From a virus (taxonomy: Duplodnaviria > Heunggongvirae > Uroviricota > Caudoviricetes): DNA of 39,063 nucleotides. Where the stretch lies: the IMG/VR virus record IMGVR_UViG_3300029305_011318. One strand, 5' to 3'. Within the stretch, counting starts at the first letter, position 1, and every line of letters starts with the position of its first letter. This document shows positions 5,208 through 33,969 of the stretch, one piece after another. Position numbers and translations under genes: made by a program. Under the pieces are notes generated by a model. That model saw nothing but the letters and a program-made list of their open reading frames with translations, had not been told where the DNA came from and did not search any database.

Positions 5208-5999
5208 TTAATAAGTTTCTTCAATATCTTTTTCATAGATTAAATATAACCGGTTTGGAGCACTTACATCTTTTCCGTTACATGTTGATAAAACTAACAT
5301 ATTTTTGTTAGGATTATATTTATCTTGTAATTTAACTACACTAGTAGTATCTATATTGTCTAGTAAATAAGTCCAATCAGAAGTGCCTTTAATATATGGT
5401 GTGTAATATATAAAATCTGTTTCAAAACCATTATTTACACTATATAATTTATATCTGGTTACAGTATCTTTTGTATAAAAATATGCATAAGGATGCTGTT
5501 TAGCATAAGATTGTTTTTCAAATTTAGATAATGGTCCAAAGTATAAATCATGATTTTTTAAACTATGGCCATAAATAATTATATGGTCATCTTTTATATC
5601 TCCTAAATTATGTACAAATAAACTACCCATTTCAGAATCATCTCCATATGGGGTTTTATTAAGGTATTTTAATGCATCATCTTCTGGCCCTTGCATAACA
5701 ATATAATCAATGTTTGTATCTGGAATAAATAACCATCCATAACAATCTTTTTCATTAATTACTTTTTCAACTATTTCAAAATTAATTTTTTCATTAATAT
5801 TATTATCATTAATTGGTTCTGATATATCTATATTTTCATTAGGTAATATTATATTAGAAACATCATTGGCTAATTGTTTATTGTCTTCCTTAACAATATT
5901 TGCTTGTAAATGTTTTTCTGATGTATGGAAAAATAAAAAATATCCGACAATTAATATACTAATAATACTAACGATAAGAGCGATAATTTTTTTATTCAT
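5208..5999 (-). CDS. srtB: Class B sortase
   Basis: N-terminal TM anchor, WLFIPDTNIDY..MQG, IIIYGH, LVLSTC and a downstream catalytic Arg. Confidence 0.88.
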   Translation of the reverse strand: MNKKIIALIVSIISILIVGYFLFFHTSEKHLQANIVKEDNKQLANDVSNIILPNENIDISEPINDNNINEKINFEIVEKVINEKDCYGWLFIPDTNIDYIVMQGPEDDALKYLNKTPYGDDSEMGSLFVHNLGDIKDDHIIIYGHSLKNHDLYFGPLSKFEKQSYAKQHPYAYFYTKDTVTRYKLYSVNNGFETDFIYYTPYIKGTSDWTYLLDNIDTTSVVKLQDKYNPNKNMLVLSTCNGKDVSAPNRLYLIYEKDIEETY

Positions 6000-19991: not shown

Positions 19992-19998
19992 ATATAAA

Positions 19999-20087
19999 CG
20001 CCGTACCTGGGATTCGAACCCAGAAACCAAATGAATGATTACCGGTTTAGCAAACCGGAGGGGTGCCAATTACCTTTATAATACGGC
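19999..20087 (-). tRNA. tRNA-Ser(GCT)
   Basis: CCGGT-TT GCT AA-ACCGG; long variable arm. Confidence 0.8.
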
Positions 20088-20092
20088 ATGAG

Positions 20093-20575: not shown

Positions 20576-20647
20576 TCCGAATGATAGGATTTGAACCTAT
20601 GACTCTCGGTATATCAGACCGATGCTCTACCACTGAACTACATTCGG
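20576..20647 (-). tRNA. tRNA-Ile(GAT)
   Basis: TCGGT-CT GAT AT-ACCGA; acceptor CCGAATG/CATTCGG. Confidence 0.9.
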
Positions 20648-20652
20648 ATAAT

Positions 20653-20695
20653 AAAAAAAGAGATAATTTATCAAACTTATGATAAATTATCTCTT
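20653..20695 (-). terminator. Terminator/attenuator hairpin directly upstream of tRNA cluster A
   Basis: Perfect 16-bp stem AAGAGATAATTTATCA/TGATAAATTATCTCTT followed by a U-run. Confidence 0.85.
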
Positions 20696-20763
20696 ATAAA
20701 AGAAAGAAAAGCTGAAAAAATGTAAAGTTGGAGATAGTTACATAATTATTTAAAGCATTGTAA

Positions 20764-20871
20764 TTAATCATAAGAAAAATATTTAATTGCAGAACAAATA
20801 GAACTACATGACTGTTGCCATCTAATTTGCGAACAACTTTGTGCAATTCGAATTCGTTTGAAATTAAACAT
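20764..20871 (-). CDS. Leader micro-ORF A (35 aa) MFNFKRIRIAQSCSQIRWQQSCSSICSAIKYFSYD
   Basis: RBS AAGGAG 8 nt before the ATG. It contains codons read by all 8 tRNAs of the downstream cluster. Confidence 0.75.
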   Translation of the reverse strand: MFNFKRIRIAQSCSQIRWQQSCSSICSAIKYFSYD

Positions 20872-20987
20872 ATCGCTTTCTCCTTATAATTTTTGTTAAA
20901 TGCCTGGGCATAATAACTATGCCCAAACATCTGACAAACAACGCAACGTATTTCCCAAAAGAGTTATAGCACATAACTCTCTATCTT

Positions 20988-21011
20988 TATATGTATAAAA
21001 TTTTGTCAAAA
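20988..21011 (-). promoter_or_regulatory. Copy of recurrent 24-bp promoter-like motif (upstream of leader A and tRNA cluster A)
   Basis: Minus strand TTTTGACAAAATTTTATACATATA. Confidence 0.7.
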
Positions 21012-22685: not shown

Positions 22686-23969
22686 TTATTCTTTTAATAA
22701 TTCTTTATATTTTTTAATTTTATGATTTTCATAAGTGTTTTTATAATCCGTTAAATATTGAATTAGGTCTTGTCCTATTAAACGTTTTTGTTGTAATTCT
22801 CGTAAAAATGATTTTTTTTCTTCATACATAGTAAGTAAAAATTCTTTACGATTCAACGTTAACCCTCTACATTGATTAAAGATATTTTGAACTTCTTCTT
22901 TGGTTGGTAATTTATCAATATTAATCAATGAAAAGTTTTTCACATGACTTAAACATTCAAATTCGGTATTATATAAACCATTTACTGTAGTTTCAACTAA
23001 ATTTTCTGGATATTCGCCCTCTTTAGTTTTTGAACTTCCATTATCAAAAATTGGTGCTGGGCTTATAAATTTTAATGTTTCGGAATTTCGTAAAAATCCA
23101 ATATTTCCTTGATGTCTATCTCTATTTGAAATTAAAAAATCCACAATTGTTTGTATATCTAAATAGTTATGCGTTTCTTGTTTGCTTAATCCATAATGAG
23201 ATGCTAATTCAACAATTTTATCCCAGATGTTATCAAGTTGTGTCATGTTATATTCTTCTAATAAATCATACGCAGATACAAATTCTATATTTTCATTAGT
23301 AAAACATTGACATATACAACCTATGATATTATTTGTTTTGTCATATACAAAATCATAATTACAGAAATTATTATATCCTTGTTTACGATAAATTAAAGAC
23401 GCAATAATTTCACGAGCAATTAAAATATCATATTGCATATCAATTTTTTTACAAAGCATAATATCTTGGTCTTTTTTATACCAAAATTTTTCTAATTGTC
23501 CTCCTAATGTAGAATTATGACCTTTATAAATATGATTGTTATCTTTAACAGTATAAAATTCATCAAGCGATTTAAATTTATCTTGAATATCTTTCCATGT
23601 TAAATTCTCTTTTTCTGATTCAATCCAATAACAATCATTAAAAGAATATCCATTGTTTTCTAACAACCATTTACGAGGAGAATAATCTTTTTGAATATAA
23701 GAATCGTAATTGTAACGATTAATTGGAATTTCTCTATCTGATAACCATCCATCAAATAAAATACAGCCATCTTCATTAAGAATAATATAATTATTATCTT
23801 CTGATTTAGATTCTATAAATTCAATATCATACCCTGGTTTTATTAATCGTTTTAATGGCAATGGTAGGGAATCTAAATATTGTGTGTTAATAATACAGGA
23901 GGTAATATCTTTATGTAAAGTTTCAAAAACAGCAAGATTAATATCTTTATGTTTTAATGTATATAACAT
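22686..23969 (-). CDS. HipA-like (HipA_C) Ser/Thr kinase
   Basis: STLGGQLEKFW; AREIIAS; DFLISNRDRHQGNIGF; APIFDNGSS. Confidence 0.85.
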   Translation of the reverse strand: MLYTLKHKDINLAVFETLHKDITSCIINTQYLDSLPLPLKRLIKPGYDIEFIESKSEDNNYIILNEDGCILFDGWLSDREIPINRYNYDSYIQKDYSPRKWLLENNGYSFNDCYWIESEKENLTWKDIQDKFKSLDEFYTVKDNNHIYKGHNSTLGGQLEKFWYKKDQDIMLCKKIDMQYDILIAREIIASLIYRKQGYNNFCNYDFVYDKTNNIIGCICQCFTNENIEFVSAYDLLEEYNMTQLDNIWDKIVELASHYGLSKQETHNYLDIQTIVDFLISNRDRHQGNIGFLRNSETLKFISPAPIFDNGSSKTKEGEYPENLVETTVNGLYNTEFECLSHVKNFSLINIDKLPTKEEVQNIFNQCRGLTLNRKEFLLTMYEEKKSFLRELQQKRLIGQDLIQYLTDYKNTYENHKIKKYKELLKE

Positions 23970-24181: not shown

Positions 24182-24222
24182 AAAATTCCCTCTATATTGA
24201 AATATAATATAGGGGGAATTAT
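24182..24222. terminator. Intrinsic terminator
   Basis: AATTCCCTCTATATT/AATATAGGGGGAATT hairpin. Confidence 0.75.
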
Positions 24223-24223
24223 T

Positions 24224-24334
24224 TTACTTGGATTTTGTAGTTTTCTTCAATTTTTCTTTTTCTTTGTCTAATTCGTTCTTCATTTTTTTATGAAGACTAC
24301 CAATTTTTCCAACTGGTTTACAAGAAAGACCCAT
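24224..24334 (-). CDS. Small basic protein (36 aa) MGLSCKPVGKIGSLHKKMKNELDKEKEKLKKTTKSK
   Basis: RBS AAGGAG; own promoter motif upstream and terminator downstream. Confidence 0.65.
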   Translation of the reverse strand: MGLSCKPVGKIGSLHKKMKNELDKEKEKLKKTTKSK

Positions 24335-24382
24335 AATATACCTTCTCCTTTGTAATTTATAATTAAATTGTATTTACATGTA

Positions 24383-24406
24383 TATATGTTTAAAATCTTC
24401 TCAAAA
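24383..24406 (-). promoter_or_regulatory. Copy of recurrent 24-bp promoter-like motif
   Basis: Minus strand TTTTGAGAAGATTTTAAACATATA. Confidence 0.68.
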
Positions 24407-24442: not shown

Positions 24443-24519
24443 TGCCTTGTGTTGGAGTCGAACCAACTTCTCTGGATTTTCAGTCCAGTGCATGAAATTA
24501 CCGAATCTGCTTACAAGGC
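24443..24519 (-). tRNA. tRNA-Phe(GAA)
   Basis: CTGGA-CT GAA AA-TCCAG; acceptor GCCTTGT/ACAAGGC. Confidence 0.88.
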
Positions 24520-24566
24520 TAGGTAAAGTCAATGATTTCTTTACCTTTGCTAAATCGTTGTTTCAT
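24519..24566 (-). CDS. Micro-ORF (15 aa) MKQRFSKGKEIIDFT abutting tRNA-Phe
   Basis: RBS AGAAAGGA; CGA-TTT at codons 4-5; the G of the TAG stop is tRNA nucleotide 1. Confidence 0.62.
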   Translation of the reverse strand: MKQRFSKGKEIIDFT

Positions 24567-24603
24567 ATACTATTATCCTTTCTATATTTTTTTGATTACA
24601 TTT

Positions 24604-24885
24604 CTAATATAATATACATTGATTTACTAATTTTTCTACTAATTCTCGGTCAATTGGTCTTACACAGTGTCTACAATGCATCAAATATTGCACCAAGAAA
24701 AGTGCTCGTTCTTCAATTTGAACTTTTTCATATTCTAAAAAATAAACATTGTATTTGTGTAATAGTTTAAAAATATCGCTTCTGACAGGACCAACCTCTG
24801 CATCTTTGTTACCAAGAAACATTTTTGTAATTTCTCGGTTAAATTCCATCCTTTTATTCAGATTGTTCATTATATAAATCCCCAT
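24604..24885 (-). CDS. Hypothetical protein within the tRNA array
   Basis: 93-aa ORF filling the spacer between tRNA-Leu(TAG) and the Phe micro-ORF. Confidence 0.6.
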   Translation of the reverse strand: MGIYIMNNLNKRMEFNREITKMFLGNKDAEVGPVRSDIFKLLHKYNVYFLEYEKVQIEERALFLVQYLMHCRHCVRPIDRELVEKLVNQCILY

Positions 24886-24941
24886 ACCAAATCATTTGTG
24901 CATATTTGTTTTCTTTTCTATATATAAGTTTTTATATCAAA

Positions 24942-25023
24942 TACGGGTAATGGGAGTCGAACCCATAAGTAATTAAACCACTATATCCTAAGTATAGCCT
25001 CTGTTCCATTCGAGTACACCCGC
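24942..25023 (-). tRNA. tRNA-Leu(TAG)
   Basis: CTATA-CT TAG GA-TATAG; long variable arm; A73. Confidence 0.87.
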
Positions 25024-25029
25024 TTAAAG

Positions 25030-25093
25030 TACCCGAAGTTGGATTTAAACTAATAATATTATGATTTTAAATCATACATGTATTATTCGGGTA
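25030..25093 (-). pseudogene. Degenerate tRNA-like element lacking a D-arm (TAA anticodon-like loop)
   Basis: TACCCGAA/TTCGGGTA closing stem; TATGA-TTTAAAA-TCATA hairpin; degraded T-loop TTTAAAT. Confidence 0.5.
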
Positions 25094-25096
25094 TAG

Positions 25097-25179
25097 TACA
25101 CCCGATGAGATTCGAACTCACATGAGCAAGCTCCTTAGATTTTAAGTCTAATGCGTATACCAAGTTCCGCCACGGGTGC
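25097..25179 (-). tRNA. tRNA-Leu(TAA)
   Basis: TTAGA-CT TAA AA-TCTAA; Leu-type D-loop; long variable arm. Confidence 0.9.
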
Positions 25180-25185
25180 ATAATA

Positions 25186-25227
25186 TTATGTTTTGGTTAA
25201 TAAAGATAATAATTGGAGTCGCAACAT
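25186..25227 (-). CDS. Micro-ORF (13 aa) MLRLQLLSLLTKT upstream of the tRNA-Leu genes
   Basis: RBS AGAAAGGA; codons TTG CGA CTC CAA TTA TTA TCT TTA TTA; stop 6 nt before tRNA-Leu(TAA). Confidence 0.7.
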   Translation of the reverse strand: MLRLQLLSLLTKT

Positions 25228-25257
25228 ATTATGTTCCTTTCTATAATAAAAGTTGAG

Positions 25258-25328
25258 TTGCTATAACCAGGTTCGAACTGATTACACTATCCTTATGAGG
25301 GACAGCCGCTTCCACTAGCGTTATAGCA
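25258..25328 (-). tRNA. tRNA-Met/Ile2 (CAT)
   Basis: Loop CT-CAT-AA; acceptor TGCTATA/TATAGCA. Met versus Ile2 cannot be resolved by eye. Confidence 0.75.
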
Positions 25329-25337
25329 ATATGAATA

Positions 25338-25409
25338 AGCACATGAAGGGAGTTGAACCCTCGCTTCTTGCTTGGAAGGCAAGCGTCATAGCCGTTAGAC
25401 CACATATGC
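25338..25409 (-). tRNA. tRNA-Gly(TCC)
   Basis: CTTGC-CT TCC AA-GCAAG; U73. Confidence 0.9.
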
Positions 25410-25525
25410 ATATATTAGGCTAATAAGAAAATCAGTCTTTTCCACTCATAATATAGACTATTCGCTTCTTTTTTCTATGATTAAACTCTGTTGTTCTATT
25501 CATAAATTCTCTTTGATATTTTAAC

Positions 25526-25597
25526 TAGGAAGGGAGGGAATCGAACCCTCGACAACCCGCTTATAAGACGTGCTTTCTGCCACTGAATTACCTTCCC
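25526..25597 (-). tRNA. tRNA-Ile(TAT)
   Basis: Loop CT-TAT-AA; acceptor GGGAAGG/CCTTCCT; T-arm GAGGG-TTCGATT-CCCTC. Confidence 0.82.
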
Positions 25598-25638
25598 GTA
25601 TTTTTGTAAATATGGTTCGGTATTCGTATTCGTTTCAT
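25588..25638 (-). CDS. Micro-ORF (16 aa) MKRIRIPNHIYKNTGR running into tRNA-Ile(TAT)
   Basis: RBS AGAAAGG; codons AAA CGA ATA CGA ATA; the last 10 nt overlap the tRNA 5' end. Confidence 0.68.
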   Translation of the reverse strand: MKRIRIPNHIYKNTGR

Positions 25639-25671
25639 AAATATTATTACCTTTCTTATTTATAATAGAAA

Positions 25672-25745
25672 TAGCGGGAGTAGGATTCGAACCTACGTAT
25701 CCAAGGTTATGAGCCTTGTGAGCATCCTCTACTCGTCATCCCGCA
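25672..25745 (-). tRNA. tRNA-Met(CAT), initiator-like
   Basis: GG-CTCATAA-CC anticodon arm; mismatched 1:72 pair; only two G-C pairs at the stem base. Confidence 0.78.
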
Positions 25746-25750
25746 TATAG

Positions 25751-25823
25751 TGACTCCTGCCGGACTTGAACCGAGCATTACATCCTTGAAAGGGATGTGT
25801 CCTAACCTCTAGACCAAGGAGCC
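25751..25823 (-). tRNA. tRNA-Glu(TTC)
   Basis: CATCC-CT TTC AA-GGATG. Confidence 0.88.
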
Positions 25824-25969
25824 AAATAATAAATTGACTAAGGTTGGTTTTAACAGTTCCAACAACTTTGTACTTTTTATACTGCACCACGCAGTTTGTG
25901 TAGTCCCTCACAATTCTTATTATTCTAATAAGCAACTATCTTAAACATGTGCACATCCATTTTAGAAAG

Positions 25970-26043
25970 AGCCGATAGAGGGACTTGAACCCCCAACAAT
26001 CTGCTTACAAGGCAGTCGCTCTACCAATTGGAGCTATATCGGC
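25970..26043 (-). tRNA. tRNA-Thr(TGT)
   Basis: Loop CT-TGT-AA; acceptor GCCGATA/TATCGGC. Confidence 0.9.
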
Positions 26044-26075
26044 AAATAACTGATTCGTTACATTTTGGTTATTTA

Positions 26076-26789
26076 TTACCCCATTGCTCTACGACACACT
26101 CTTTTTTCAAGTAATGGCGTATCGATTTCAAAATAACCATTAATTATACGGTCATATTGAAACCATTGTGTTTCAGATGGAATAGGTTTAGAAATACCTT
26201 CTTCAAATGCTTCAATACATGCATATTGATAACATGTTTCATTTAAATCTGTTAAATTAAAATGTAATGCTTCAATGGCATTCAATTTATCGGTATAAAA
26301 TCCCCATACTCTACTTGCTCCATGATTATTAAATCCAGCAGGTCGTCTTTCGATTTCACCATTTTCATTTTGTTTTTCATATATAACTTCTTCTAATGTT
26401 TCGCACACATAAATGGTATAAATTTTGTGTGTATTTGTTTTTTGTGTGTTTAATCGAATAAAAGCAAGAATTTTATCCGATGGTAAATCGAATTCACATA
26501 TGTAATGAAAATTAATCGTATCTTTTAAAGATTTCCCATTTGTAGATAATATATCTTGATAATTCGTTGGGTTTTTTTTGTACGAAACTATATCTACAAT
26601 TGTACCTAATGTTAAATTGTCCATAGATTTTTCTTTATCTTCGATAATAACAGTGGAGGCTACAATTTGTCTTATATCATGCCATAAACCATGTACTTTA
26701 TATTGTGGATGATTTGTAGTAATTGTAATCTGTGGCATAAAATATTTTTGGATGTCTTTTTGAGATAACATATAAATTGCCTCCATCAA
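26076..26789 (-). CDS. Hypothetical protein within the tRNA array
   Basis: 237-aa ORF. A GGAGG RBS suggests the real start is the internal MLSQK. Confidence 0.75.
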   Translation of the reverse strand: MMEAIYMLSQKDIQKYFMPQITITTNHPQYKVHGLWHDIRQIVASTVIIEDKEKSMDNLTLGTIVDIVSYKKNPTNYQDILSTNGKSLKDTINFHYICEFDLPSDKILAFIRLNTQKTNTHKIYTIYVCETLEEVIYEKQNENGEIERRPAGFNNHGASRVWGFYTDKLNAIEALHFNLTDLNETCYQYACIEAFEEGISKPIPSETQWFQYDRIINGYFEIDTPLLEKRVCRRAMG

Positions 26790-26814
26790 AAATAATAAAA
26801 TCGTTTTGGATTAA

Positions 26815-26900
26815 GGGTGAAAGATGAGACTTGAACTCACAAGGGCATTTACCCGCCGGAACCACAATCCGGTGCGTTTACCAATTCCGCCACTAACACC
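26815..26900 (-). tRNA. tRNA-His(GTG) with a long variable arm
   Basis: CCGGA-TT GTG GT-TCCGG; G-1:C73; Leu-like D-loop; extra arm CGGG-TAAATG-CCC. Confidence 0.82.
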
Positions 26901-27065
26901 ATATGTAAGGGTGACACTAAGCATATGACTACAACCGAATCATCTACAGTCATAATCAATCTTCTCCGAGGTTTTACCCCTTACTATTTTATCAAGGCAC
27001 AACTTGATAAACCTTAGACATAAGTTTTTTGTATAGAAATCTTGTACTACTCTATACATGCTTCG

Positions 27066-27139
27066 TTGGAATAGTGGGATTCGAACCCACACATTCTCCC
27101 ATCCAACGGGAGTTGGCTACCAATTACCTCTATATTCCA
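27066..27139 (-). tRNA. tRNA-Pro(TGG)
   Basis: CTCCC-GT TGG AT-GGGAG; T-arm GTGGG-TTCGAAT-CCCAC. Confidence 0.82.
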
Positions 27140-27516: not shown

Positions 27517-27597
27517 TGCGTCTGACAGGATTCGAACCTGCGATGGATTGCTCCCACGGATTAAAAGTCCGGTGCCCTACCTCTAGGCGACAGACGC
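27517..27597 (-). tRNA. tRNA-Lys(TTT) with an enlarged variable region
   Basis: Loop CT-TTT-AA; acceptor GCGTCTG/CAGACGC; extra hairpin GGA-GCAA-TCC. Confidence 0.85.
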
Positions 27598-27639
27598 TTA
27601 TGGTTTTCGTACTTTTGATTTACGTTTTCGTTTCTTCAT
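27598..27639 (-). CDS. Micro-ORF (13 aa) MKKRKRKSKVRKP abutting tRNA-Lys(TTT)
   Basis: RBS AGAAAGGA; codons AAG AAA CGA AAA CGT AAA TCA AAA GTA CGA AAA; the TAA directly precedes tRNA nucleotide 1. Confidence 0.72.
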   Translation of the reverse strand: MKKRKRKSKVRKP

Positions 27640-27825: not shown

Positions 27826-27897
27826 TGCCTAATGAGGGATTCGAACCTACAACTTTTCGGTTAACAGCCGCTTGCTCTACCATTGAACTACACGCCC
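27826..27897 (-). pseudogene. Chimeric/defective tRNA-Asn(GTT)
   Basis: Normal D and anticodon arms, but 5' GGGCGTG does not pair with 3' ATTAGGC and T-stem GTAGG does not pair with CCCTC. Confidence 0.72.
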
Positions 27898-27937
27898 AAA
27901 AAAATACCACCTATTACATCATATAATAAGTGGTATC
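27898..27937 (-). terminator. Terminator/attenuator directly abutting tRNA cluster B
   Basis: 13-bp stem ATACCACTTATTA/TAATAGGTGGTAT plus U6, ending at tRNA-Asn nucleotide 1. Confidence 0.85.
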
Positions 27938-28001
27938 TTTTCATTAATCTAAGAAAGTGAGATATTTATCTGGGCAAACATATTGTTTGTTCCATTTATT
28001 A

Positions 28002-28127
28002 TTATACAATGAAATGGTCTATATCTTTATTTGATTGTTTGTTTTTATCCATAGGGAAATAAAAGCTTTTTTCAAGCCCACGTTCTAAATTCATAGTATT
28101 AATTGTATTTTTTACCATGTTTATCAT
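28002..28127 (-). CDS. Leader micro-ORF B (41 aa) MINMVKNTINTMNLERGLEKSFYFPMDKNKQSNKDIDHFIV
   Basis: RBS AGAAAGG; lies between the promoter motif and the attenuator hairpin. Confidence 0.68.
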   Translation of the reverse strand: MINMVKNTINTMNLERGLEKSFYFPMDKNKQSNKDIDHFIV

Positions 28128-28227
28128 AACTTTTCCCTTTCTGTTTGTTTCTTAATATTACTATACGGTAATTTTTATTTTTTGAAAGTATTTTTCAAAA
28201 ATTTTTTATTTTTTTCTTATCTATGTA

Positions 28228-28251
28228 TATATGTATAAAAATTTCTCAAAA
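28228..28251 (-). promoter_or_regulatory. Copy of recurrent 24-bp promoter-like motif (upstream of leader B and tRNA cluster B)
   Basis: Minus strand TTTTGAGAAATTTTTATACATATA. Confidence 0.7.
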
Positions 28252-29346: not shown

Positions 29347-29378
29347 AAAAAAAGATACGACTTAAATCGTATCTTTTT
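29347..29378. terminator. Intrinsic terminator
   Basis: AAAAGATACGA-CTTAAA-TCGTATCTTTT. Confidence 0.82.
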
Positions 29379-30570
29379 CATCATATTCTTCTATTTTATT
29401 TATTTCATAATCTAAAGTATTATTTTTATCTTTAATAGGGATTTGTAATTCTTTTGCTCTTTCCATAAAAGATTGATATTGTCTATCTGTCAAAAACAAA
29501 TCTCTTGTAATGGGTTTTGTAAAATGAAAATCTACATGTTTCATGGCTTCTTTTGCAGTTTCATAAATAGATTCTCCGGTTAATTGATATTTGGCATTTT
29601 TATCTCGCATATAAGCAATATCAAACGCATTATTATGGTCGTACAAAGGATGACAACCTAATATTTCCATTGTATTACAATTATAGAAAAATCCCCAATT
29701 CATACCATGCCTATCACGATTACTAATTAAATAATCAACTATCATCATTTTATACATAGAATCCGGGTCTATTTTAATGGCTTCTCGTAATGTATCTAAT
29801 CCTTGTTGGTTACAATACGAATAAAAATCAACACCCGGTAAAATAGCAATATCTTCTGTTGTCATACATTTACATTTTACAGTATCTAAGATTTCATTTG
29901 TTTGTACATCCATAGATGTGCTCATTTCATAATGAAGATGTTCAACATTACAACAATCTAAAATATTGCTGCACATAGCTTCAATTTTTGATTCCCAAGA
30001 ACCATTTGCACCTAATTTATGTAAGTATAATCCATCTTCTTCTCTCTTCCATGCTTTTGCATAGGCTCCTTGTCCTGTTAATTCCGGTGTGGTTAAATTT
30101 CCATCTAAAGATAAACTACTGCCATGTAAAGATACTTGAATAACCACTTCACTTAATGAATTGGTTCGTAAATTAACATCTTCCCAAGTTTTAGTATCGC
30201 CTTCTAATTTTACCCAATAATTATCTTGTAAGGATACTGCCCGACATAATAATGCTATTTTGGCTTTATCATAATCAGATTGCAATTGTTCTAAATTAAA
30301 TAATGTGTAAATTTTCTTTGCATTATCACGAGTAATAGGTAATACCCGATGTGCTAAAAATGACTTTATTGAATCGTTATTAGCATTATTAACGATAGTG
30401 GCTTGCGTAACGTCATATTTAAAATTACCGGTTAATGGTTTATGTTCACGTAATCTATATTTTAATGTAAATGGAATTAATTGTTTATTTAATACATCAT
30501 ATTTACCTTCATCAAAATTAATTTGCATAACCGGTTCATTTTTCATCATTAATAATAAATCTCTTGCCAT
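29362..30570 (-). CDS. Second HipA-like (HipA_C) Ser/Thr kinase
   Basis: PELTGQGAYAKAW; DYLISNRDRHGMNWGF; HPLYDHNNAF; RBS AAGGAGAGG. Confidence 0.85.
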   Translation of the reverse strand: MARDLLLMMKNEPVMQINFDEGKYDVLNKQLIPFTLKYRLREHKPLTGNFKYDVTQATIVNNANNDSIKSFLAHRVLPITRDNAKKIYTLFNLEQLQSDYDKAKIALLCRAVSLQDNYWVKLEGDTKTWEDVNLRTNSLSEVVIQVSLHGSSLSLDGNLTTPELTGQGAYAKAWKREEDGLYLHKLGANGSWESKIEAMCSNILDCCNVEHLHYEMSTSMDVQTNEILDTVKCKCMTTEDIAILPGVDFYSYCNQQGLDTLREAIKIDPDSMYKMMIVDYLISNRDRHGMNWGFFYNCNTMEILGCHPLYDHNNAFDIAYMRDKNAKYQLTGESIYETAKEAMKHVDFHFTKPITRDLFLTDRQYQSFMERAKELQIPIKDKNNTLDYEINKIEEYDEKDTI

Positions 30571-30705: not shown

Positions 30706-33700
30706 TTACATACTTATACGTTCTGAAATTTCCGCCATCTTCGCTTTATTTAAGCGAGTATCTCCATGAACTCGTGAAAATGAAAGATAGCCATTCATTC
30801 TGTCAATCTTAGTTAGATTACTGCTTCCGCATTTTGGACATACATCCATTTCTAACTGTTGATGACCACAATCATCACAATATGCTAATGATAAATTAAC
30901 TCCTTCATAGAATCCCATTTTCATTGCACGACGTACTAATGTTTTAATAGAATCTATATTATAATCAATTGGGTATCGTACATATTGAATTTTTCCACCA
31001 TTGAATAAATTCCAAAATCTATTTTCTAAATTTTGTTTTTCAATTGGTGTGATTTTTTCTGTAACATGACAATGAAAACTGTTAGATACATATTCTCTAT
31101 CTGATACGTTTTCAATAATGCCGAATTCTTTTCTAAATTGTGTTACTTGTTTACCCGTTAAACTTTCGGCAGGAGTCCCATATATAGCATAAAGGATATT
31201 ATCTTCTTTTTTATATTCATCTAATTTTTTATTAATATATTCCATTACTTCTAATGCAAATTGCCCATCTTCTACTATGGATTTACCATTATATAATCTT
31301 TGTAATTCGTTCAAAGCAGTAATACCAAAAGAGGCTGTTGATGATTTTAATACAGGAGCAATTTTATCATTCAAATCTAAATGCCCACCATAAAAACCAC
31401 CTTCACAAAAACCTAATGGATTCATAGATGCTTTCATATGGGATAAATGTTCATAAGTTCGTTTATGAATATTCCGTATCATTTCTAAATAATAATCTAA
31501 TTCTTCATAAAAATCTTTTCCGGTTCGTCTGGATTTTGCTAAAATCATTGGAAGATGTAAAGACACAACTCCGCAATTAAATCTTCCAACAAATACCGGT
31601 TTGTCATTTTCATCTACTGGATACATTCCACCATATTCATACCAAGGAGAAAGGAAAGCTCTACAATTATGACTATATATACCGCTAACTTCAAAATGCT
31701 CGCTATCTGTTGTAACATCATAACTATACATTTGTCTTTCTATTGGTAAGATTTCAACAATTTCCGCATACGTATTATAATGAGATGAAACTGCATCTCT
31801 ATAAAATTGACGTTTTTTTTCACAAATAATATAATTGAGCAATTCTTCTGTTGCGAAAAATTCAACTCTATAGCGAATAGCATTTGGATTATTTTTTAAA
31901 TAATGATTGTGATAAATTTTAGCGGGCATACCCAAGGCTTGTACTAATGCCATTTGTTGTAACGACAATTCTTTATTTGTGGAACCAATTTGAACAACTG
32001 AACCACCATGCGAACTTGCATTTAAATAACCATCAGCATCAATCATTCCTGCTAAAAACGCCATTTTAGATTCATAATCCCAAGAAAAAACTTCGTTAGG
32101 AATATGCCGATTAATCTTATTAATTCCGCCAAATTTTACAGTAAAATAATTTATAGTAGATTGTAAGTTATTATTTTCATCAGCTATTGCAACTAAATCT
32201 TTATATCGACCTTTCTTACCTCGTTCTTGTAAAATTGTTTTTGTTTTTAAATCAAAATATTTTGAAAAAACATAGTGGAACTTATTCTCGATTTCATCTT
32301 CTCCTTGTGCGGCTATTGACACATAAATTCTGTTAGATTGATAACAACCATCACAAAGCATAAATCCTAATAACCAAGCCTTATCTTTATTAAAAACAAT
32401 TGTTTCTTCATTATATTGGTTTGAATTTATCATAATTTTATCTGATATTTGTAAATTTTTAGCGATTATTTGACCTTTTTCAATAACTTCAAAAGGATGG
32501 TCCTCGGTACACAATAGTCGACGACCATTTGATAAATGTACATCAATCCATTTATCAGATACATTTCGTATGATTTTTTGTGTATTTACAAAACCTTTTT
32601 CAGTATCATATATCATTACATCTAATAAATTCATATACATGTGTGGTTGACCTAAAATTTGATATTGTGGTTCAAAAAAGTCCGATAGTCGTTTCCACAT
32701 TCTTTCAAAAGATTCAACATATAATTGATTTTTATATTTATATGTGATAATTTCTTTGCCATCTACGCAACCCATTGGCGAAACTACTTTTCCATATTTT
32801 TTATACATTTCTGCCACATAACCATCACCAGTTAAACTTAACCAGTCAGGATACATGGTTTTTGCAGAACATTGTATTCCTACCTCAAAAACATCTTCTA
32901 AAACTTTTCCAGGTCCATGTAAATTTTCATCATACAGGAAAACCAATTTCGGAAATAAAACCGGTTTTTTATGACCTTTTTTACCTTGACCATTCATTCT
33001 AGTTCTTAAAATAGATTTGGAAATCTCTTTACCCCATTTGGAAGTATTTAATCCAAAAGTTGCGGTAATAAATGGATAATCTCCACGGCTAGAAGCTACG
33101 GTATTAAATTTGTATTCCCAGCCTTGAAATCCTTGGTCTATATCTTTACATACTTTTTTTGTTGCATATTCATTAGCATCTTGTGATAAATTAATACCAT
33201 ACGCATCATATTCAATATTATGTTGTTGCATAATATCTAAATATTCATTATAATATCTTTGATATGATTTTTCGGCATATGGCTCTAATATAAAATCTAC
33301 TTCCGGAAGTGTGAAACCTCCATACTGCTGACTCGCGGCCATTAATGTAATATCTCCAATCACATCAAATGCAGTATCAATTGTTTTAGGTTCATTATAC
33401 CAAACATTTCCCATTTCAAATCCACCAGTAAGAATAGACTGAATATCGCAGAGACAGCAATTCATGGTATCAAGTCTGGCACCTTTATCATGAGGATAGA
33501 TATAACCTTCTGCCGCCGCTTTCCGTTCATCTGCATTAAGAAAATATTCTTCATATTGTGCTGTCTCTAAAATATCTAATTTTTTGACTCTTTTAGTAGA
33601 GACTAATGATGAATCTGCATTGGAATTGGATTTATCTCCTAAAAATTGAATAGCATTACATTCGGCTGTTACTTTAGCATTCATTTGTGCTTCTCGTTTA

Positions 33701-33969
33701 ATCCAATTACGATAATCTTTATAAGATTTCGCAACATCCGAGCGAATTTCTTCTAATGCCATTTCTACTAAAGAATGTACTGTTTCTACCGGAATAACAT
33801 TATCACTTCTAGTAAAAACTTGATTTTCGACTAATGCTATCACTTTTGCGTTTTCGTCATCCGATAATTGAGAAGCAATACGGTTAGCTGATTCGCTAAT
33901 GGCATGTATAATTTTGTTCGCATCCCACTCTTCTAAATTCCCGGATTTTTTTCTTACATAAATATCCAT
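30706..33969 (-). CDS. nrdD: Class III (anaerobic) ribonucleoside-triphosphate reductase with ATP-cone, containing an intein
   Basis: N-terminal ATP-cone; YGTPAESL; Zn ribbon CDDCG...CPKCG; glycyl-radical motif RMNGYL. Confidence 0.95.
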   Translation of the reverse strand: MDIYVRKKSGNLEEWDANKIIHAISESANRIASQLSDDENAKVIALVENQVFTRSDNVIPVETVHSLVEMALEEIRSDVAKSYKDYRNWIKREAQMNAKVTAECNAIQFLGDKSNSNADSSLVSTKRVKKLDILETAQYEEYFLNADERKAAAEGYIYPHDKGARLDTMNCCLCDIQSILTGGFEMGNVWYNEPKTIDTAFDVIGDITLMAASQQYGGFTLPEVDFILEPYAEKSYQRYYNEYLDIMQQHNIEYDAYGINLSQDANEYATKKVCKDIDQGFQGWEYKFNTVASSRGDYPFITATFGLNTSKWGKEISKSILRTRMNGQGKKGHKKPVLFPKLVFLYDENLHGPGKVLEDVFEVGIQCSAKTMYPDWLSLTGDGYVAEMYKKYGKVVSPMGCVDGKEIITYKYKNQLYVESFERMWKRLSDFFEPQYQILGQPHMYMNLLDVMIYDTEKGFVNTQKIIRNVSDKWIDVHLSNGRRLLCTEDHPFEVIEKGQIIAKNLQISDKIMINSNQYNEETIVFNKDKAWLLGFMLCDGCYQSNRIYVSIAAQGEDEIENKFHYVFSKYFDLKTKTILQERGKKGRYKDLVAIADENNNLQSTINYFTVKFGGINKINRHIPNEVFSWDYESKMAFLAGMIDADGYLNASSHGGSVVQIGSTNKELSLQQMALVQALGMPAKIYHNHYLKNNPNAIRYRVEFFATEELLNYIICEKKRQFYRDAVSSHYNTYAEIVEILPIERQMYSYDVTTDSEHFEVSGIYSHNCRAFLSPWYEYGGMYPVDENDKPVFVGRFNCGVVSLHLPMILAKSRRTGKDFYEELDYYLEMIRNIHKRTYEHLSHMKASMNPLGFCEGGFYGGHLDLNDKIAPVLKSSTASFGITALNELQRLYNGKSIVEDGQFALEVMEYINKKLDEYKKEDNILYAIYGTPAESLTGKQVTQFRKEFGIIENVSDREYVSNSFHCHVTEKITPIEKQNLENRFWNLFNGGKIQYVRYPIDYNIDSIKTLVRRAMKMGFYEGVNLSLAYCDDCGHQQLEMDVCPKCGSSNLTKIDRMNGYLSFSRVHGDTRLNKAKMAEISERISM
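31666..32769 (-). mobile_element. Intein (368 aa) with a LAGLIDADG homing endonuclease in nrdD
   Basis: SPMG|CVDG...YSHN|CRAF junctions; two LAGLIDADG motifs, WLLGFMLCDG and FLAGMIDADG. Confidence 0.92.

What the first reader, a model, noticed from the sequence alone, without database searches (positions are those of the whole stretch)
27898..28251. Leader B has textbook attenuator geometry in front of the 13-tRNA cluster
The order on the minus strand is promoter motif (28228-28251), RBS, 41-aa ORF, 13-bp terminator whose U-tract ends at tRNA nucleotide 1. The 10 nt immediately after the stop codon (TAATAAATGG, 28001-27992) are complementary at 9 of 10 positions to the terminator 5' arm (CCACTTATTA, 27933-27924). 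A ribosome reaching the stop would mask this antiterminator and allow termination, while a ribosome stalled earlier would allow read-through, as in trp attenuation. All 11 amino acids served by the downstream cluster (N, K, P, H, T, E, M, I, G, L, F) occur in the peptide, making up 31 of 41 residues. Those residues are common in AT-rich proteomes, so the geometry is the stronger evidence.
Basis: partly seen in the sequence, partly recalled or inferred. Interest (0 to 1): 0.85.

Follow-up and report, generated by a model that had tools for sequence, protein, structure and literature searches.

The report
Leader-peptide attenuator before phage tRNAs
In an uncultured gut phage, a short translated reading frame followed by a transcription stop signal sits between a phage promoter and a block of tRNA genes. 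It probably lets the phage make those tRNAs only when ribosomes read the matching codons slowly, a control I found described for amino-acid genes but not for tRNA genes.

Summary
There is a phage promoter box (11 copies in the window against 0.04 expected), a Shine-Dalgarno site, a 41-codon ORF, a strong intrinsic terminator, and a 9-of-10 complement between the bases after the stop codon and the terminator's 5' arm.

Three corrections apply:
- The "tRNA" that touches the U-tract is a decayed tRNA-Asn chimera. The first intact tRNA (Lys) lies 300 nt further on.
- A 1:2 hairpin also exists, so only stalls in the last five or so codons could cause read-through.
- The antiterminator is weak (about -5 kcal/mol net, with a 6-9 kcal/mol barrier).

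The leader's codons cover all 12 downstream tRNA classes (p about 0.02), but overall enrichment is modest (28/40, p 0.07). The strongest support is a parallel unit, leader A, in front of the other tRNA cluster. Its peptide uses 23 of 34 codons read by its eight tRNAs (p 1e-8), and its stop-spanning antiterminator is stronger.

Only near-identical strains exist, so covariation cannot be tested, and no RNA data were found. I read leader B as a probable (about 0.5) ribosome-mediated attenuator. This scan has noted the same design in other phages, and I re-checked one case (phiCbK gp083). I found no publication describing it.

The parts
28228..28251 (-). Phage promoter box TTTTGAGAAATTTTTATACATATA
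   Evidence: One of 11 minus-strand copies, against 0.04 expected by chance. The other copies lie directly upstream of ordinary genes.
28179..28201 (-). 5'-UTR hairpin (UUUUUGAAA / AAUAC loop / UUUCAAAAA)
   Evidence: Present in the minimum-energy fold. The two non-coding SNPs seen among strains (28190 in L026, 28188 in L001) both fall in its loop.
28134..28142 (-). Shine-Dalgarno site AGAAAGGGA, 6 nt before the ATG
   Evidence: Read from the sequence. It is the same AGAAAGG-type site used by ordinary genes and by the micro-ORFs of this element.
28002..28127 (-). 41-codon leader ORF MINMVKNTINTMNLERGLEKSFYFPMDKNKQSNKDIDHFIV plus its stop codon; two further in-frame TAA codons follow (to 27996)
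   Evidence: It has no Pfam or PHROG match. In 5.8 billion proteins only identical or 98%-identical copies exist. Of its 40 codons after the start, 28 are read by the cluster-B tRNAs, and all 12 tRNA classes are covered.
28006..28017 (-). Segment 1, inside the last four codons of the ORF
   Evidence: Pairs with segment 2 in an 11-bp hairpin of -5.4 kcal/mol.
27992..28003 (-). Segment 2, the stop codon and the 10 nt after it; it can pair with segment 1 or with segment 3
   Evidence: 9/10 complement to 27933-27924. Best duplex with the terminator 5' arm is -7.6 kcal/mol at 28003-27991.
27924..27941 (-). Segment 3, the terminator 5' arm (core 27936-27924, A-rich extension to 27941)
27898..27916 (-). 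Segment 4, the terminator 3' arm (27916-27904), and the U-tract (27904-27898)
   Evidence: Hairpin energy is -15.5 kcal/mol (13-bp core) to -20.5 kcal/mol (extended). P(terminator) exceeds 0.99 in the full transcript.
27826..27897 (-). Decayed, chimeric tRNA-Asn-like sequence. The 5' two thirds are of tRNA-Asn(GTT) type. The 3' end (CCCTC / ATTAGGCA) does not pair with the 5' strands.
   Evidence: No ARAGORN call. Rfam 28.9 bits against a cut-off of 29, positions 8-63 only. BLAST shows 81-87% identity to phage tRNA-Asn genes over about 27900-27834 only. The chimera reading is an inference from the sequence.
27517..27639 (-). First intact downstream unit: Lys-rich micro-ORF MKKRKRKSKVRKP (27639-27598) whose stop abuts tRNA-Lys(TTT) (27597-27517)
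   Evidence: Six Lys in 12 codons, binomial p 1e-4.
24443..27139 (-). Rest of tRNA cluster B, interspersed with 83-, 237- and 93-aa ORFs: Pro, His, Thr, Glu, Met, Ile(TAT), Gly, Met, Leu(TAA), an armless tRNA-like, Leu(TAG), Phe(GAA)
   Evidence: No promoter box lies between 28228 and 24406.
20658..21011 (-). Parallel unit 'leader A'. It has a promoter box at 21011-20988. Its 35-codon ORF runs 20871-20764. A stop-spanning segment (20775-20761) is complementary (13 bp) to the top and loop of the terminator at 20695-20658. tRNA-Ile(GAT) follows at 20647.
   Evidence: 23/34 codons are read by the eight downstream tRNAs (p 1e-8), all 8 classes are covered, and it is the unique top scorer among 161 small ORFs. 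Its antiterminator duplex is -11.1 kcal/mol, matched by 1.7% of shuffles, with a barrier of 11.3 kcal/mol.

Best explanation
Leader B is a ribosome-mediated (leader-peptide) transcription attenuator. It gates read-through from a phage promoter into tRNA cluster B.

Shown by sequence:
- The order is promoter box, SD, 41-codon ORF, then three mutually exclusive pairings: 1:2 (-5.4 kcal/mol), 2:3 (9/10) and 3:4. The 3:4 pairing is an intrinsic terminator of -15 to -20 kcal/mol with a 7-U tract.
- No further promoter box lies in the 3.8 kb that hold the tRNAs.

Inferred mechanism:
- A ribosome that reaches the UAA covers segment 2 (28003-27992), so the terminator forms and the transcript ends.
- With no translation, or with a stall early in the ORF, 1:2 forms and the terminator again forms.
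- A ribosome that stalls with its A site on roughly GAT ATA GAC CAT TTC covers segment 1 but leaves segment 2 free. Three of these codons (ATA, CAT, TTC) are read by the cluster's own Ile(TAT), His and Phe tRNAs.
- Free segment 2 pairs with the terminator's 5' arm and delays hairpin formation, so RNA polymerase runs on into the tRNA genes.
- Once those tRNAs are abundant the ribosome no longer stalls and transcription is cut back, giving a negative feedback on tRNA supply.

Because the 2:3 helix is weak, the switch is probably leaky and partial. Leader B is one of two such units in the window and is the weaker of the two.
For: - The promoter box is real, with 11 copies against 0.04 expected. 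No copy lies between 28228 and 24406, so it is the only recognisable promoter for cluster B. Extended -10 motifs are not enriched, and none lies between the terminator and tRNA-Lys.
- The other terminators followed by a promoter box have it within a few bases (30663, 29353, 12380, 8510). This one is followed by tRNA sequence.
- The 9/10 2:3 complement sits exactly in the ribosome shadow of the stop codon. An identity-based hit of this kind occurs in 0.35% of spacer shuffles.
- With the RNA 5' of the stop codon excluded, 2:3 is the minimum-energy fold of the nascent RNA, with P 0.8-0.98 and a net gain of -5.1 kcal/mol.
- The leader covers 12 of 12 downstream tRNA classes, as do 201 of 8922 gene windows. 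Combined with 28/40 cognate codons, 15 of 8922 windows and 1 of 161 small ORFs match it. It does not match cluster A (6/40).
- Leader A replicates the design independently. Its stop-spanning segment is complementary to its terminator's top at -11.1 kcal/mol (1.7% of shuffles), while eight control terminators give z -0.7 to +1.4. Its peptide has 23/34 cognate codons (p 1e-8) and does not match cluster B (6/34).
- SD-bearing micro-ORFs rich in the cognate codon precede tRNA-Lys (6/12, p 1e-4) and tRNA-Leu (6/12, p 2e-4).
- The same layout exists in an unrelated published phage. In phiCbK, gp083 (23/44 P/K/L/S, p 2e-5, 0 of 10980 windows) is followed by an annotated terminator and then Pro, Pro, Lys, Lys, Leu, Leu, Leu, Ser, Ser tRNAs.
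Against: - Codon enrichment of leader B alone is not significant (28/40 against a 57% background, p 0.066; strict wobble p 0.35).
- By duplex energy the antiterminator is matched by 13% of shuffles.
- In whole-transcript equilibrium folds, with any single ribosome mask, P(2:3) is at most 0.02 and the terminator wins with P > 0.99.
- The estimated refolding barrier from the 2:3 state is only 5.9-8.6 kcal/mol.
- Two of the five best-placed sensor codons are Asp, for which the window holds no tRNA.
- The first gene after the terminator is a dead chimeric tRNA.
- The upstream 239-aa gene has no terminator of its own, so this hairpin could simply close the 89-239-41 aa unit.
- A third promoter, micro-ORF and terminator module (leader C, 24406-24185) is followed by its own conserved extended -10 promoter. 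Such modules can therefore be plain small genes.
- Only near-identical strains exist (3 SNPs, none in segments 1-4), so there is no covariation evidence.
- Distant relatives (L023, L025) carry tRNAs without such leaders.
- From my own knowledge, not tested here: in Firmicutes such as B. subtilis RNA polymerase usually outruns the ribosome, which makes ribosome-coupled attenuation less common.
Confidence: 0.5

Rival explanations
1. The 41-codon ORF is an ordinary small gene with an ordinary terminator. It is the last cistron of the 89-239-41 aa unit and also has its own promoter. The hairpin is a constitutive operon-end terminator. The tRNAs are made from unrecognised promoters or from constitutive leakage. 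The 2:3 complement and the codon coverage are coincidences of AT-rich sequence.
For: - No terminator lies between the 239-aa gene (ends 28284) and the leader.
- Leader C shows that a promoter, micro-ORF and terminator module can be followed by an independent, conserved extended -10 promoter.
- Leader B's codon enrichment has p 0.07, and its antiterminator energy is matched by 13% of shuffles.
- In relative L027 a promoter-like box lies 12 nt before a tRNA with no leader.
Against: - No promoter box and no extended -10 motif lies between the terminator and tRNA-Lys.
- The combination of 12/12 class coverage with 28/40 cognate codons is reached by 1 of 161 small ORFs.
- The complement sits exactly at the stop codon, and the same coincidence recurs at leader A with p about 1e-8 for its codons.
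- The peptide has no homologues beyond near-identical strains.
Confidence: 0.25
2. The terminator is a timing gate that is overcome by a phage factor. This would be an antiterminator protein or a modified RNA polymerase, as with lambda N/Q or read-through into T4 delayed-early genes. The tRNAs would then be made only after an early protein appears, and the ORF and its codons would play no sensing role.
For: - Three promoter-proximal terminators (leaders A, B and C) sit in front of payloads.
- The terminator is very stable and the antiterminator is weak.
Against: - It does not explain why leader A's peptide is built from its cluster's codons (p 1e-8), nor why each leader matches only its own cluster.
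- It does not explain why the stop codon lies within the antiterminator segment in both leaders.
- No nut- or put-like conserved element is shared by the three leaders.
Confidence: 0.12
3. Leader B is a relic. It once controlled a cluster that began with tRNA-Asn. A deletion between the T-loops of two tRNA genes left a dead chimera, and the switch is now decaying. That would explain its weak 2:3 helix and modest codon match.
For: - The abutting tRNA-like has Asn-type 5' two thirds and an unrelated 3' end.
- Leader B is weaker than leader A by every measure.
Against: - The ORF, SD, terminator and all pairing segments are intact and identical in four strains.
- Twelve intact tRNAs still lie downstream with no other recognisable promoter.
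Confidence: 0.08

Closest known systems
Leader-peptide transcription attenuators of amino-acid biosynthetic operons (trpL; multivalent thrL and ilvL/ivbL) of enterobacteria
   Same: - A promoter-proximal short ORF with its own SD.
- Four segments giving 1:2, 2:3 and 3:4 alternatives.
- The 3:4 pairing is an intrinsic terminator.
- A ribosome at the stop codon covers segment 2.
- The codons of the leader relate to the product of the regulated genes.
- As in thrL and ilvL, several different amino acids are sampled.
   Different: - The regulated genes are tRNAs, not biosynthetic enzymes.
- There is no run of repeated regulatory codons. Instead there is a 'checklist' of one to six codons for each of 12 tRNA classes.
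- The antiterminator is much weaker.
- The host is probably a Firmicute and the element is a phage.
- There is no sequence match to any Rfam leader family.
T-box riboswitches of Firmicutes
   Same: They sense tRNA status and control a terminator/antiterminator choice in a leader, in the same broad host group.
   Different: - T-boxes bind uncharged tRNA directly, need no translation, and control aminoacyl-tRNA synthetase and amino-acid genes.
- No T-box match is found here.
- A translated ORF is present here instead.
Read-through or antitermination control of the phage T4 tRNA region and delayed-early genes (from my own knowledge, not tested here)
   Same: Phage tRNA genes lie downstream of a promoter-proximal region with small ORFs, and their expression depends on transcription running through upstream signals.
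   Different: To my knowledge no codon-matched leader peptide or stop-codon-linked antiterminator has been described there.
Codon-matched leader ORF plus terminator units before tRNA arrays in other phages
   Same: A small ORF enriched in the amino acids of the downstream tRNAs, then a terminator, then the tRNA array. In phiCbK gp083, 23 of 44 residues are P/K/L/S, before Pro, Pro, Lys, Lys, Leu, Leu, Leu, Ser, Ser tRNAs.
   Different: - The phages, hosts, base composition and sequences are unrelated.
- Those units are unpublished AI notes, apart from the public phiCbK annotation of the CDS and the terminator.
- Leader B's match is weaker than most of them.

Membership tests
Leader-peptide (ribosome-mediated) transcription attenuator | Short ORF with a ribosome-binding site between the promoter and the regulated genes | tested here: met
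   SD AGAAAGGGA lies 6 nt before the ATG of a 41-codon ORF, 100 nt after the promoter box.
Leader-peptide (ribosome-mediated) transcription attenuator | Intrinsic terminator between the leader ORF and the regulated genes | tested here: met
   A 13-20 bp hairpin of -15.5 to -20.5 kcal/mol with a 7-U tract ends at 27898.
Leader-peptide (ribosome-mediated) transcription attenuator | An antiterminator pairing that excludes the terminator and is itself excluded by a ribosome at the end of the ORF | tested here: inconclusive
   The 9/10 complement lies at the stop codon. It is the minimum-energy fold in a local nascent model (P 0.8-0.98). It reaches P <= 0.02 in whole-transcript models. The barrier is 6-9 kcal/mol. 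By energy it is matched by 13% of shuffles.
Leader-peptide (ribosome-mediated) transcription attenuator | Regulatory codons cognate to the regulated function, placed so that a stall frees the antiterminator | tested here: inconclusive
   12/12 tRNA classes are covered (p 0.02) and 28/40 codons are cognate (p 0.07). Of the five codons best placed for sensing, three (ATA, CAT, TTC) are cognate and two (GAT, GAC) are not.
Leader-peptide (ribosome-mediated) transcription attenuator | Read-through depends on translation of the leader | not testable with these tools
   No RNA run holds the sequence. This needs reporter assays, Term-seq or in vitro assays.
Leader-peptide (ribosome-mediated) transcription attenuator | Conservation or covariation of the alternative pairings in homologues | tested here: inconclusive
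   Only near-identical strains were found, with 3 SNPs and none in segments 1-4. More distant relatives lack the unit.
Rfam leader, T-box or other curated cis-regulatory families | Covariance-model match at the gathering score | tested here: not met
   Only tRNA hits reach the gathering score. The sub-threshold hits (trpB motif 20.4/59, rli61 18.7/50) match only the generic terminator hairpin.
tRNA (RF00005), for the sequence abutting the U-tract | Cloverleaf with an acceptor stem and a score at or above 29 bits | tested here: not met
   The score is 28.9 bits over positions 8-63 only. There are mispairs in the anticodon and T stems and no ARAGORN call.
Intrinsic (Rho-independent) terminator | Stable hairpin immediately followed by a U-tract | tested here: met
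   The simple scanner did not list it, probably because of its stem and loop limits.

The most novel reading that the evidence does not exclude
The phage runs a translation-coupled supply control for its own tRNAs at two levels. First, 'checklist' leader peptides with stop-codon-linked antiterminators gate whole tRNA clusters (leaders A and B). Second, SD-bearing micro-ORFs rich in the cognate codon sit directly before single tRNA genes (Lys, Leu, Ile-TAT, Phe). Together with look-alike units in unrelated phages such as phiCbK, this would be a widespread, undescribed class of attenuator that senses tRNA availability and regulates tRNA genes.
Probability: 0.45. Interest if true: 0.85.

Novelty: new variant of a known kind. 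Interest (0 to 1): 0.62.

Why it matters
Why phages carry tRNA genes, and how they time their expression, is a long-standing question. A leader peptide that reads the very codons served by the tRNAs behind it would be a direct feedback sensor of decoding capacity.

It would also extend classical attenuation from amino-acid genes to tRNA genes, and from bacteria to phages. The idea is directly testable with small reporter constructs.

Six literature searches found no description of such control. Leader B itself is a weak example. Its value lies mainly in being the second, independent unit of the system in this element, and in showing the design in a probable Firmicute phage.

Tried and rejected
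Searches for relatives:
- No relatives of the element turned up in INPHARED. Only tRNA-sized hits were found.
- IMG/VR gave nothing with three flanking proteins, the hairpin, or the promoter pattern. The 20 single hits to the promoter pattern are chance matches.
- The 239-aa neighbour and the 41-aa peptide have only identical or 98%-identical copies in 5.8 billion proteins.
- Strain contigs L001, L002 and L026 differ by 3 SNPs, which is too few to be informative.
- Relatives found through the 237-aa ORF (L023, L024, L025) and through the HipA-like kinase (L027, L028) were examined. They have tRNAs but no cognate leaders or micro-ORFs, and L029 is a bacterial hipBA locus.

Sequencing runs:
- No RNA holder is listed among the public runs.
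- Laying contigs of four DNA runs gave identical low-depth phage pieces plus many foreign tRNA matches. No usable variants came out.

Other checks:
- No whole genome is held for this window.
- The simple sigma-70 scan shows no enrichment, with 36 hits against 40.6 expected. TGNTANAAT is not enriched either.
- A ribozyme or other structured-RNA reading of the 380-nt spacer before tRNA-Ala was rejected. There is no Rfam hit and the fold z-score is -0.27.
- Leader C was rejected as a third attenuator. Its terminator starts 5 nt after the stop codon and is followed by a conserved extended -10 promoter.
- I looked for the missing acceptor 3' strand of the Asn-like sequence further downstream by eye and found none.
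Full report
**Setting.** The window is part of an AT-rich element of about 127 kb. It is phage-like and known only from animal gut or faeces metagenomes. All genes near the finding lie on the minus strand. Neither INPHARED nor IMG/VR holds a relative. Earlier notes of this scan call it a prophage-like element of a Lachnospiraceae or Clostridia bacterium. I did not test that. The strong Shine-Dalgarno (SD) sites of its genes fit a Firmicute host.

**The observation.**
- The 24-nt box at 28251-28228 is one of 11 minus-strand copies of TTTTGAGAANNTTTTNTACATATA, against 0.04 expected. The other copies sit directly in front of ordinary genes, so it is a genuine promoter-type motif of the element.
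- A small 5'-UTR hairpin follows at 28201-28179.
- The SD AGAAAGGGA lies at 28142-28134.
- The 41-codon ORF runs 28127-28005 and ends in three tandem TAA codons.
- A 56-nt spacer holds two small hairpins.
- The terminator hairpin has a core of 27936-27924 paired with 27916-27904, at -15.5 kcal/mol. It extends to 20 bp at -20.5 kcal/mol.
- The run of seven T lies at 27904-27898.
- TAATAAATGG (28001-27992) is complementary to CCACTTATTA (27933-27924) at 9 of 10 positions.

**Corrections to the observation.** The sequence that starts right after the U-tract (27897-27826) is not a working tRNA.
- ARAGORN does not call it.
- Rfam gives 28.9 bits against a cut-off of 29. The match covers model positions 8-63 only, with two mispairs each in the anticodon and T stems and no acceptor stem.
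- BLAST matches phage tRNA-Asn genes only over the 5' two thirds.
- Its 3' end (CCCTC, ATTAGGCA) looks like the end of a different tRNA. I infer a deletion between the T-loops of two neighbouring genes.

The first intact tRNA (Lys, 27597) is 300 nt further on. It pairs 28017-28006, the last four sense codons, with 28002-27992, at -5.4 kcal/mol.

**Is the 2:3 complement more than chance?**
- By identity, a 9/10 hit to the 13-nt core arm occurs in 0.35% of dinucleotide shuffles of the spacer. It occurs in 4.8% of shuffles of the whole leader, and at 3.6e-4 per base across the window.
- By energy, the best duplex between the arm plus loop and the upstream 100 nt is this site (-7.6 kcal/mol), but 13% of shuffles do as well.
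- The pairing is therefore real and well placed, but on its own only mildly unusual.

**Is it energetically competitive?** The answer depends on the model.
- I folded the whole nascent transcript from the start region, with or without a single 30-nt ribosome mask at six positions. P(2:3) never exceeds 0.02. Once the 3' arm is present the terminator has P > 0.99.
- If everything 5' of the stop codon is excluded, as when queued ribosomes cover the ORF, the 2:3 helix closes a three-way junction. It is then the minimum-energy fold before the 3' arm emerges, with P 0.8-0.98 and a net gain of -5.1 kcal/mol.
- The findpath barrier from that state to the terminator is 5.9-8.6 kcal/mol. That would delay terminator formation only briefly, so any switch here should be leaky.

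**Where a stall would have to occur.** This follows from standard footprint geometry, about 12-13 nt 3' of the first A-site base.
- A ribosome with UAA in the A site covers segment 2 entirely.
- One with its A site on ATA, GAC or CAT (28022-28014) covers segment 1 and leaves segment 2 free.
- Stalls much earlier leave 1:2 intact and should terminate.

**Codons.** I used 29 ORFs of the window (10,082 codons) as background and standard wobble rules.
- Of the 40 leader codons after the start, 28 are read by the downstream set. That set is Asn, Lys, Pro, His, Thr, Glu, Met, Ile-TAT, Gly, Leu-TAA, Leu-TAG and Phe. The background is 57% and p is 0.066.
- All 12 classes are represented, which 201 of 8922 gene windows achieve. 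Both criteria together are met by 15 of 8922 windows and by 1 of 161 six-frame ATG-ORFs of 25-60 codons, the leader itself.
- This is consistent with a 'checklist' leader, but the support is modest.

**The decisive context: leader A.** A second promoter box (21011-20988) precedes the other tRNA cluster. That cluster holds Ile-GAT, Ser-TGA, Trp, Arg-TCT, Cys, Ser-GCT, Gln and Arg-ACG. ARAGORN miscalls the 91-nt Ser-GCT as Gly.
- The box is followed by a strong SD, a 35-codon ORF (20871-20764), a 55-nt spacer, a 16-bp terminator (20695-20658) and tRNA-Ile.
- The segment spanning its stop codon (20775-20761) is complementary over 13 bp to the top of the terminator's 5' arm and its loop.
- That duplex is -11.1 kcal/mol, matched by 1.7% of shuffles. 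Eight ordinary terminators of the window give z between -0.7 and +1.4.
- The barrier is 11.3 kcal/mol.
- Its peptide, MFNFKRIRIAQSCSQIRWQQSCSSICSAIKYFSYD, uses 23 of 34 codons read by exactly those eight tRNAs. The background is 21.5%, binomial p is 1e-8, and no gene window out of 9096 matches. It covers 8/8 classes and is the unique top scorer among 161 small ORFs.
- The match is specific to each cluster. Leader A has 6/34 cluster-B codons, and leader B has 6/40 cluster-A codons.
- Leader A's stop-codon segment can also pair with its own SD region in the full-length fold. That is a 1:2 alternative.

The same three-way logic therefore occurs twice, built from unrelated sequences.

**Further context.** SD-bearing micro-ORFs lie directly before single tRNA genes:
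- MKKRKRKSKVRKP, whose stop abuts tRNA-Lys (6 Lys in 12 codons, p 1e-4);
- MLRLQLLSLLTKT, before tRNA-Leu(TAA) (6 Leu in 12 codons, p 2e-4);
- MKRIRI..., which runs into tRNA-Ile(TAT) (ATA twice, p 0.03);
- MKQRFSKGKEIIDFT, before tRNA-Phe (p 0.14).

Low-complexity AT-rich spacers could mimic part of this.

A third promoter, micro-ORF and terminator module (leader C, 24406-24185) differs. Its terminator starts 5 nt after the stop codon. It has no upstream complement (z +1.1). It is followed by an extended -10 promoter, TGTTGTTTGTGGTATAAT, which is conserved in relative L027. Such modules can therefore be plain small genes, and this keeps the ordinary reading of leader B alive.

**Comparative and expression data.**
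- Only near-identical strains exist. L001, L002 and L026 differ from the window by three SNPs in total. Two lie in the loop of the 5'-UTR hairpin and one changes Asn10 to Lys. None lies in segments 1-4.
- More distant relatives carry tRNAs but no such leaders.
- No RNA runs are listed. The DNA contigs laid on the region gave no variants.
- Covariation and expression therefore remain untested.

**Comparison with what is known.**
- The anatomy is that of enterobacterial leader-peptide attenuators. It is closest to the multivalent thrL and ilvL type, but it governs tRNA genes.
- No Rfam leader or T-box model matches.
- Six full-text searches found no description of leader-peptide attenuation of tRNA genes.
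- This scan has noted the same design in several unrelated phages. Those are unchecked notes, so I tested one lead myself in the public genome of Caulobacter phage phiCbK.
- There the annotated 45-aa gp083 is followed by an annotated terminator and then Pro, Pro, Lys, Lys, Leu, Leu, Leu, Ser, Ser tRNAs. 23 of its 44 residues are P/K/L/S, against a 23% background (p 2e-5, 0 of 10,980 windows).
- A 32-codon ORF before the Phe/Val/Ile/Gln array is only weakly matched (p 0.06).
- The class-level pattern therefore recurs outside this element.

**Verdict.**
- The attenuator reading is partly supported and is my best explanation, at about 0.5.
- A plain small gene with an operon-end terminator comes next (0.25), then factor-dependent antitermination (0.12), then a decaying relic (0.08).
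- It is a new variant of a known kind of control.
- Leader B is the weaker of two units in this window. Interest is moderate to high, mainly because of the system it belongs to.

Noticed in passing
window 20658-21011 (-): Leader A is a second promoter, 35-codon ORF and terminator unit before the Ile/Ser/Trp/Arg/Cys/Ser/Gln/Arg tRNA cluster. Its peptide uses 23/34 codons read by those tRNAs (p 1e-8), and a 13-bp antiterminator spans its stop codon. It is a much stronger case than leader B.
   Followed up: yes
window 19998-20088 (-): ARAGORN calls this 91-nt gene tRNA-Gly(tcc). The anticodon loop TTGCTAA and the long variable arm show that it is tRNA-Ser(GCT).
   Followed up: yes
window 27598-27639, 25186-25227, about 25598-25637, 24519-24566 (-): SD-bearing micro-ORFs sit directly before tRNA-Lys, tRNA-Leu(TAA), tRNA-Ile(TAT) and tRNA-Phe. 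Those before Lys and Leu are rich in the cognate codon (6/12 each). Their stop codons abut or overlap the tRNA 5' end, and there is no terminator between ORF and tRNA.
   Followed up: partly
window 27826-27897 (-): A chimeric pseudo-tRNA. Its 5' two thirds are of tRNA-Asn(GTT) type and are joined within the T-loop to the 3' end of a different tRNA. A deletion between neighbouring tRNA genes is the likely cause.
   Followed up: partly
window 25030-25092 (-): A 63-nt AT-rich tRNA-like between the two Leu tRNAs, with a good acceptor stem but no D arm (Rfam 36 bits, no ARAGORN call). Its anticodon loop could read TAA.
   Followed up: no
window 24185-24406 (-) and L027 640-690: Leader C consists of a promoter box, a Lys-rich 36-aa ORF and a terminator 5 nt after the stop codon. 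A conserved extended -10 promoter (TGTTGTTTGTGGTATAAT) follows. That promoter precedes a 42-aa ORF, a HipA-like kinase and tRNA-Ala. The promoter is also present in a relative with 65% protein identity.
   Followed up: partly
window 29362-30570 and 22686-23969 (-): Two paralogous HipA-like kinase genes (402 and 427 aa) flank the tRNA region. Each follows a promoter box. The family has about 1800 relatives at E <= 0.001 in the representative protein library. Kinases of this type are known to target aminoacyl-tRNA synthetases, so a link to the tRNA and translation theme is possible.
   Followed up: no
window 30706-33969 (-): An anaerobic ribonucleotide reductase (NrdD) gene interrupted by an intein with a LAGLIDADG endonuclease domain, according to the precomputed Pfam hits.
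   Followed up: no
window 28188 and 28190 (-): Both non-coding SNPs among the four strains fall in the 5-nt loop of the 5'-UTR hairpin (28201-28179). The stem is untouched.
   Followed up: partly
L023 about 5880-5910 and L025 about 5800-5830: A hairpin upstream of tRNA-Lys in two distant relatives keeps its pairing through different stem sequences (GGAGTCAAC...GTTGACTTC against GGAGCCGAT...ATCGGCTTC). Both loci also carry a tRNA with anticodon TCA (an opal suppressor type).
   Followed up: no
L031 2541-2868 (phiCbK 49540-49867): In the published Caulobacter phage phiCbK, the annotated 45-aa gp083 (23/44 residues P/K/L/S) is followed by an annotated terminator. Pro, Pro, Lys, Lys, Leu, Leu, Leu, Ser, Ser tRNAs come next. 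This is the same layout as the leaders here.
   Followed up: partly
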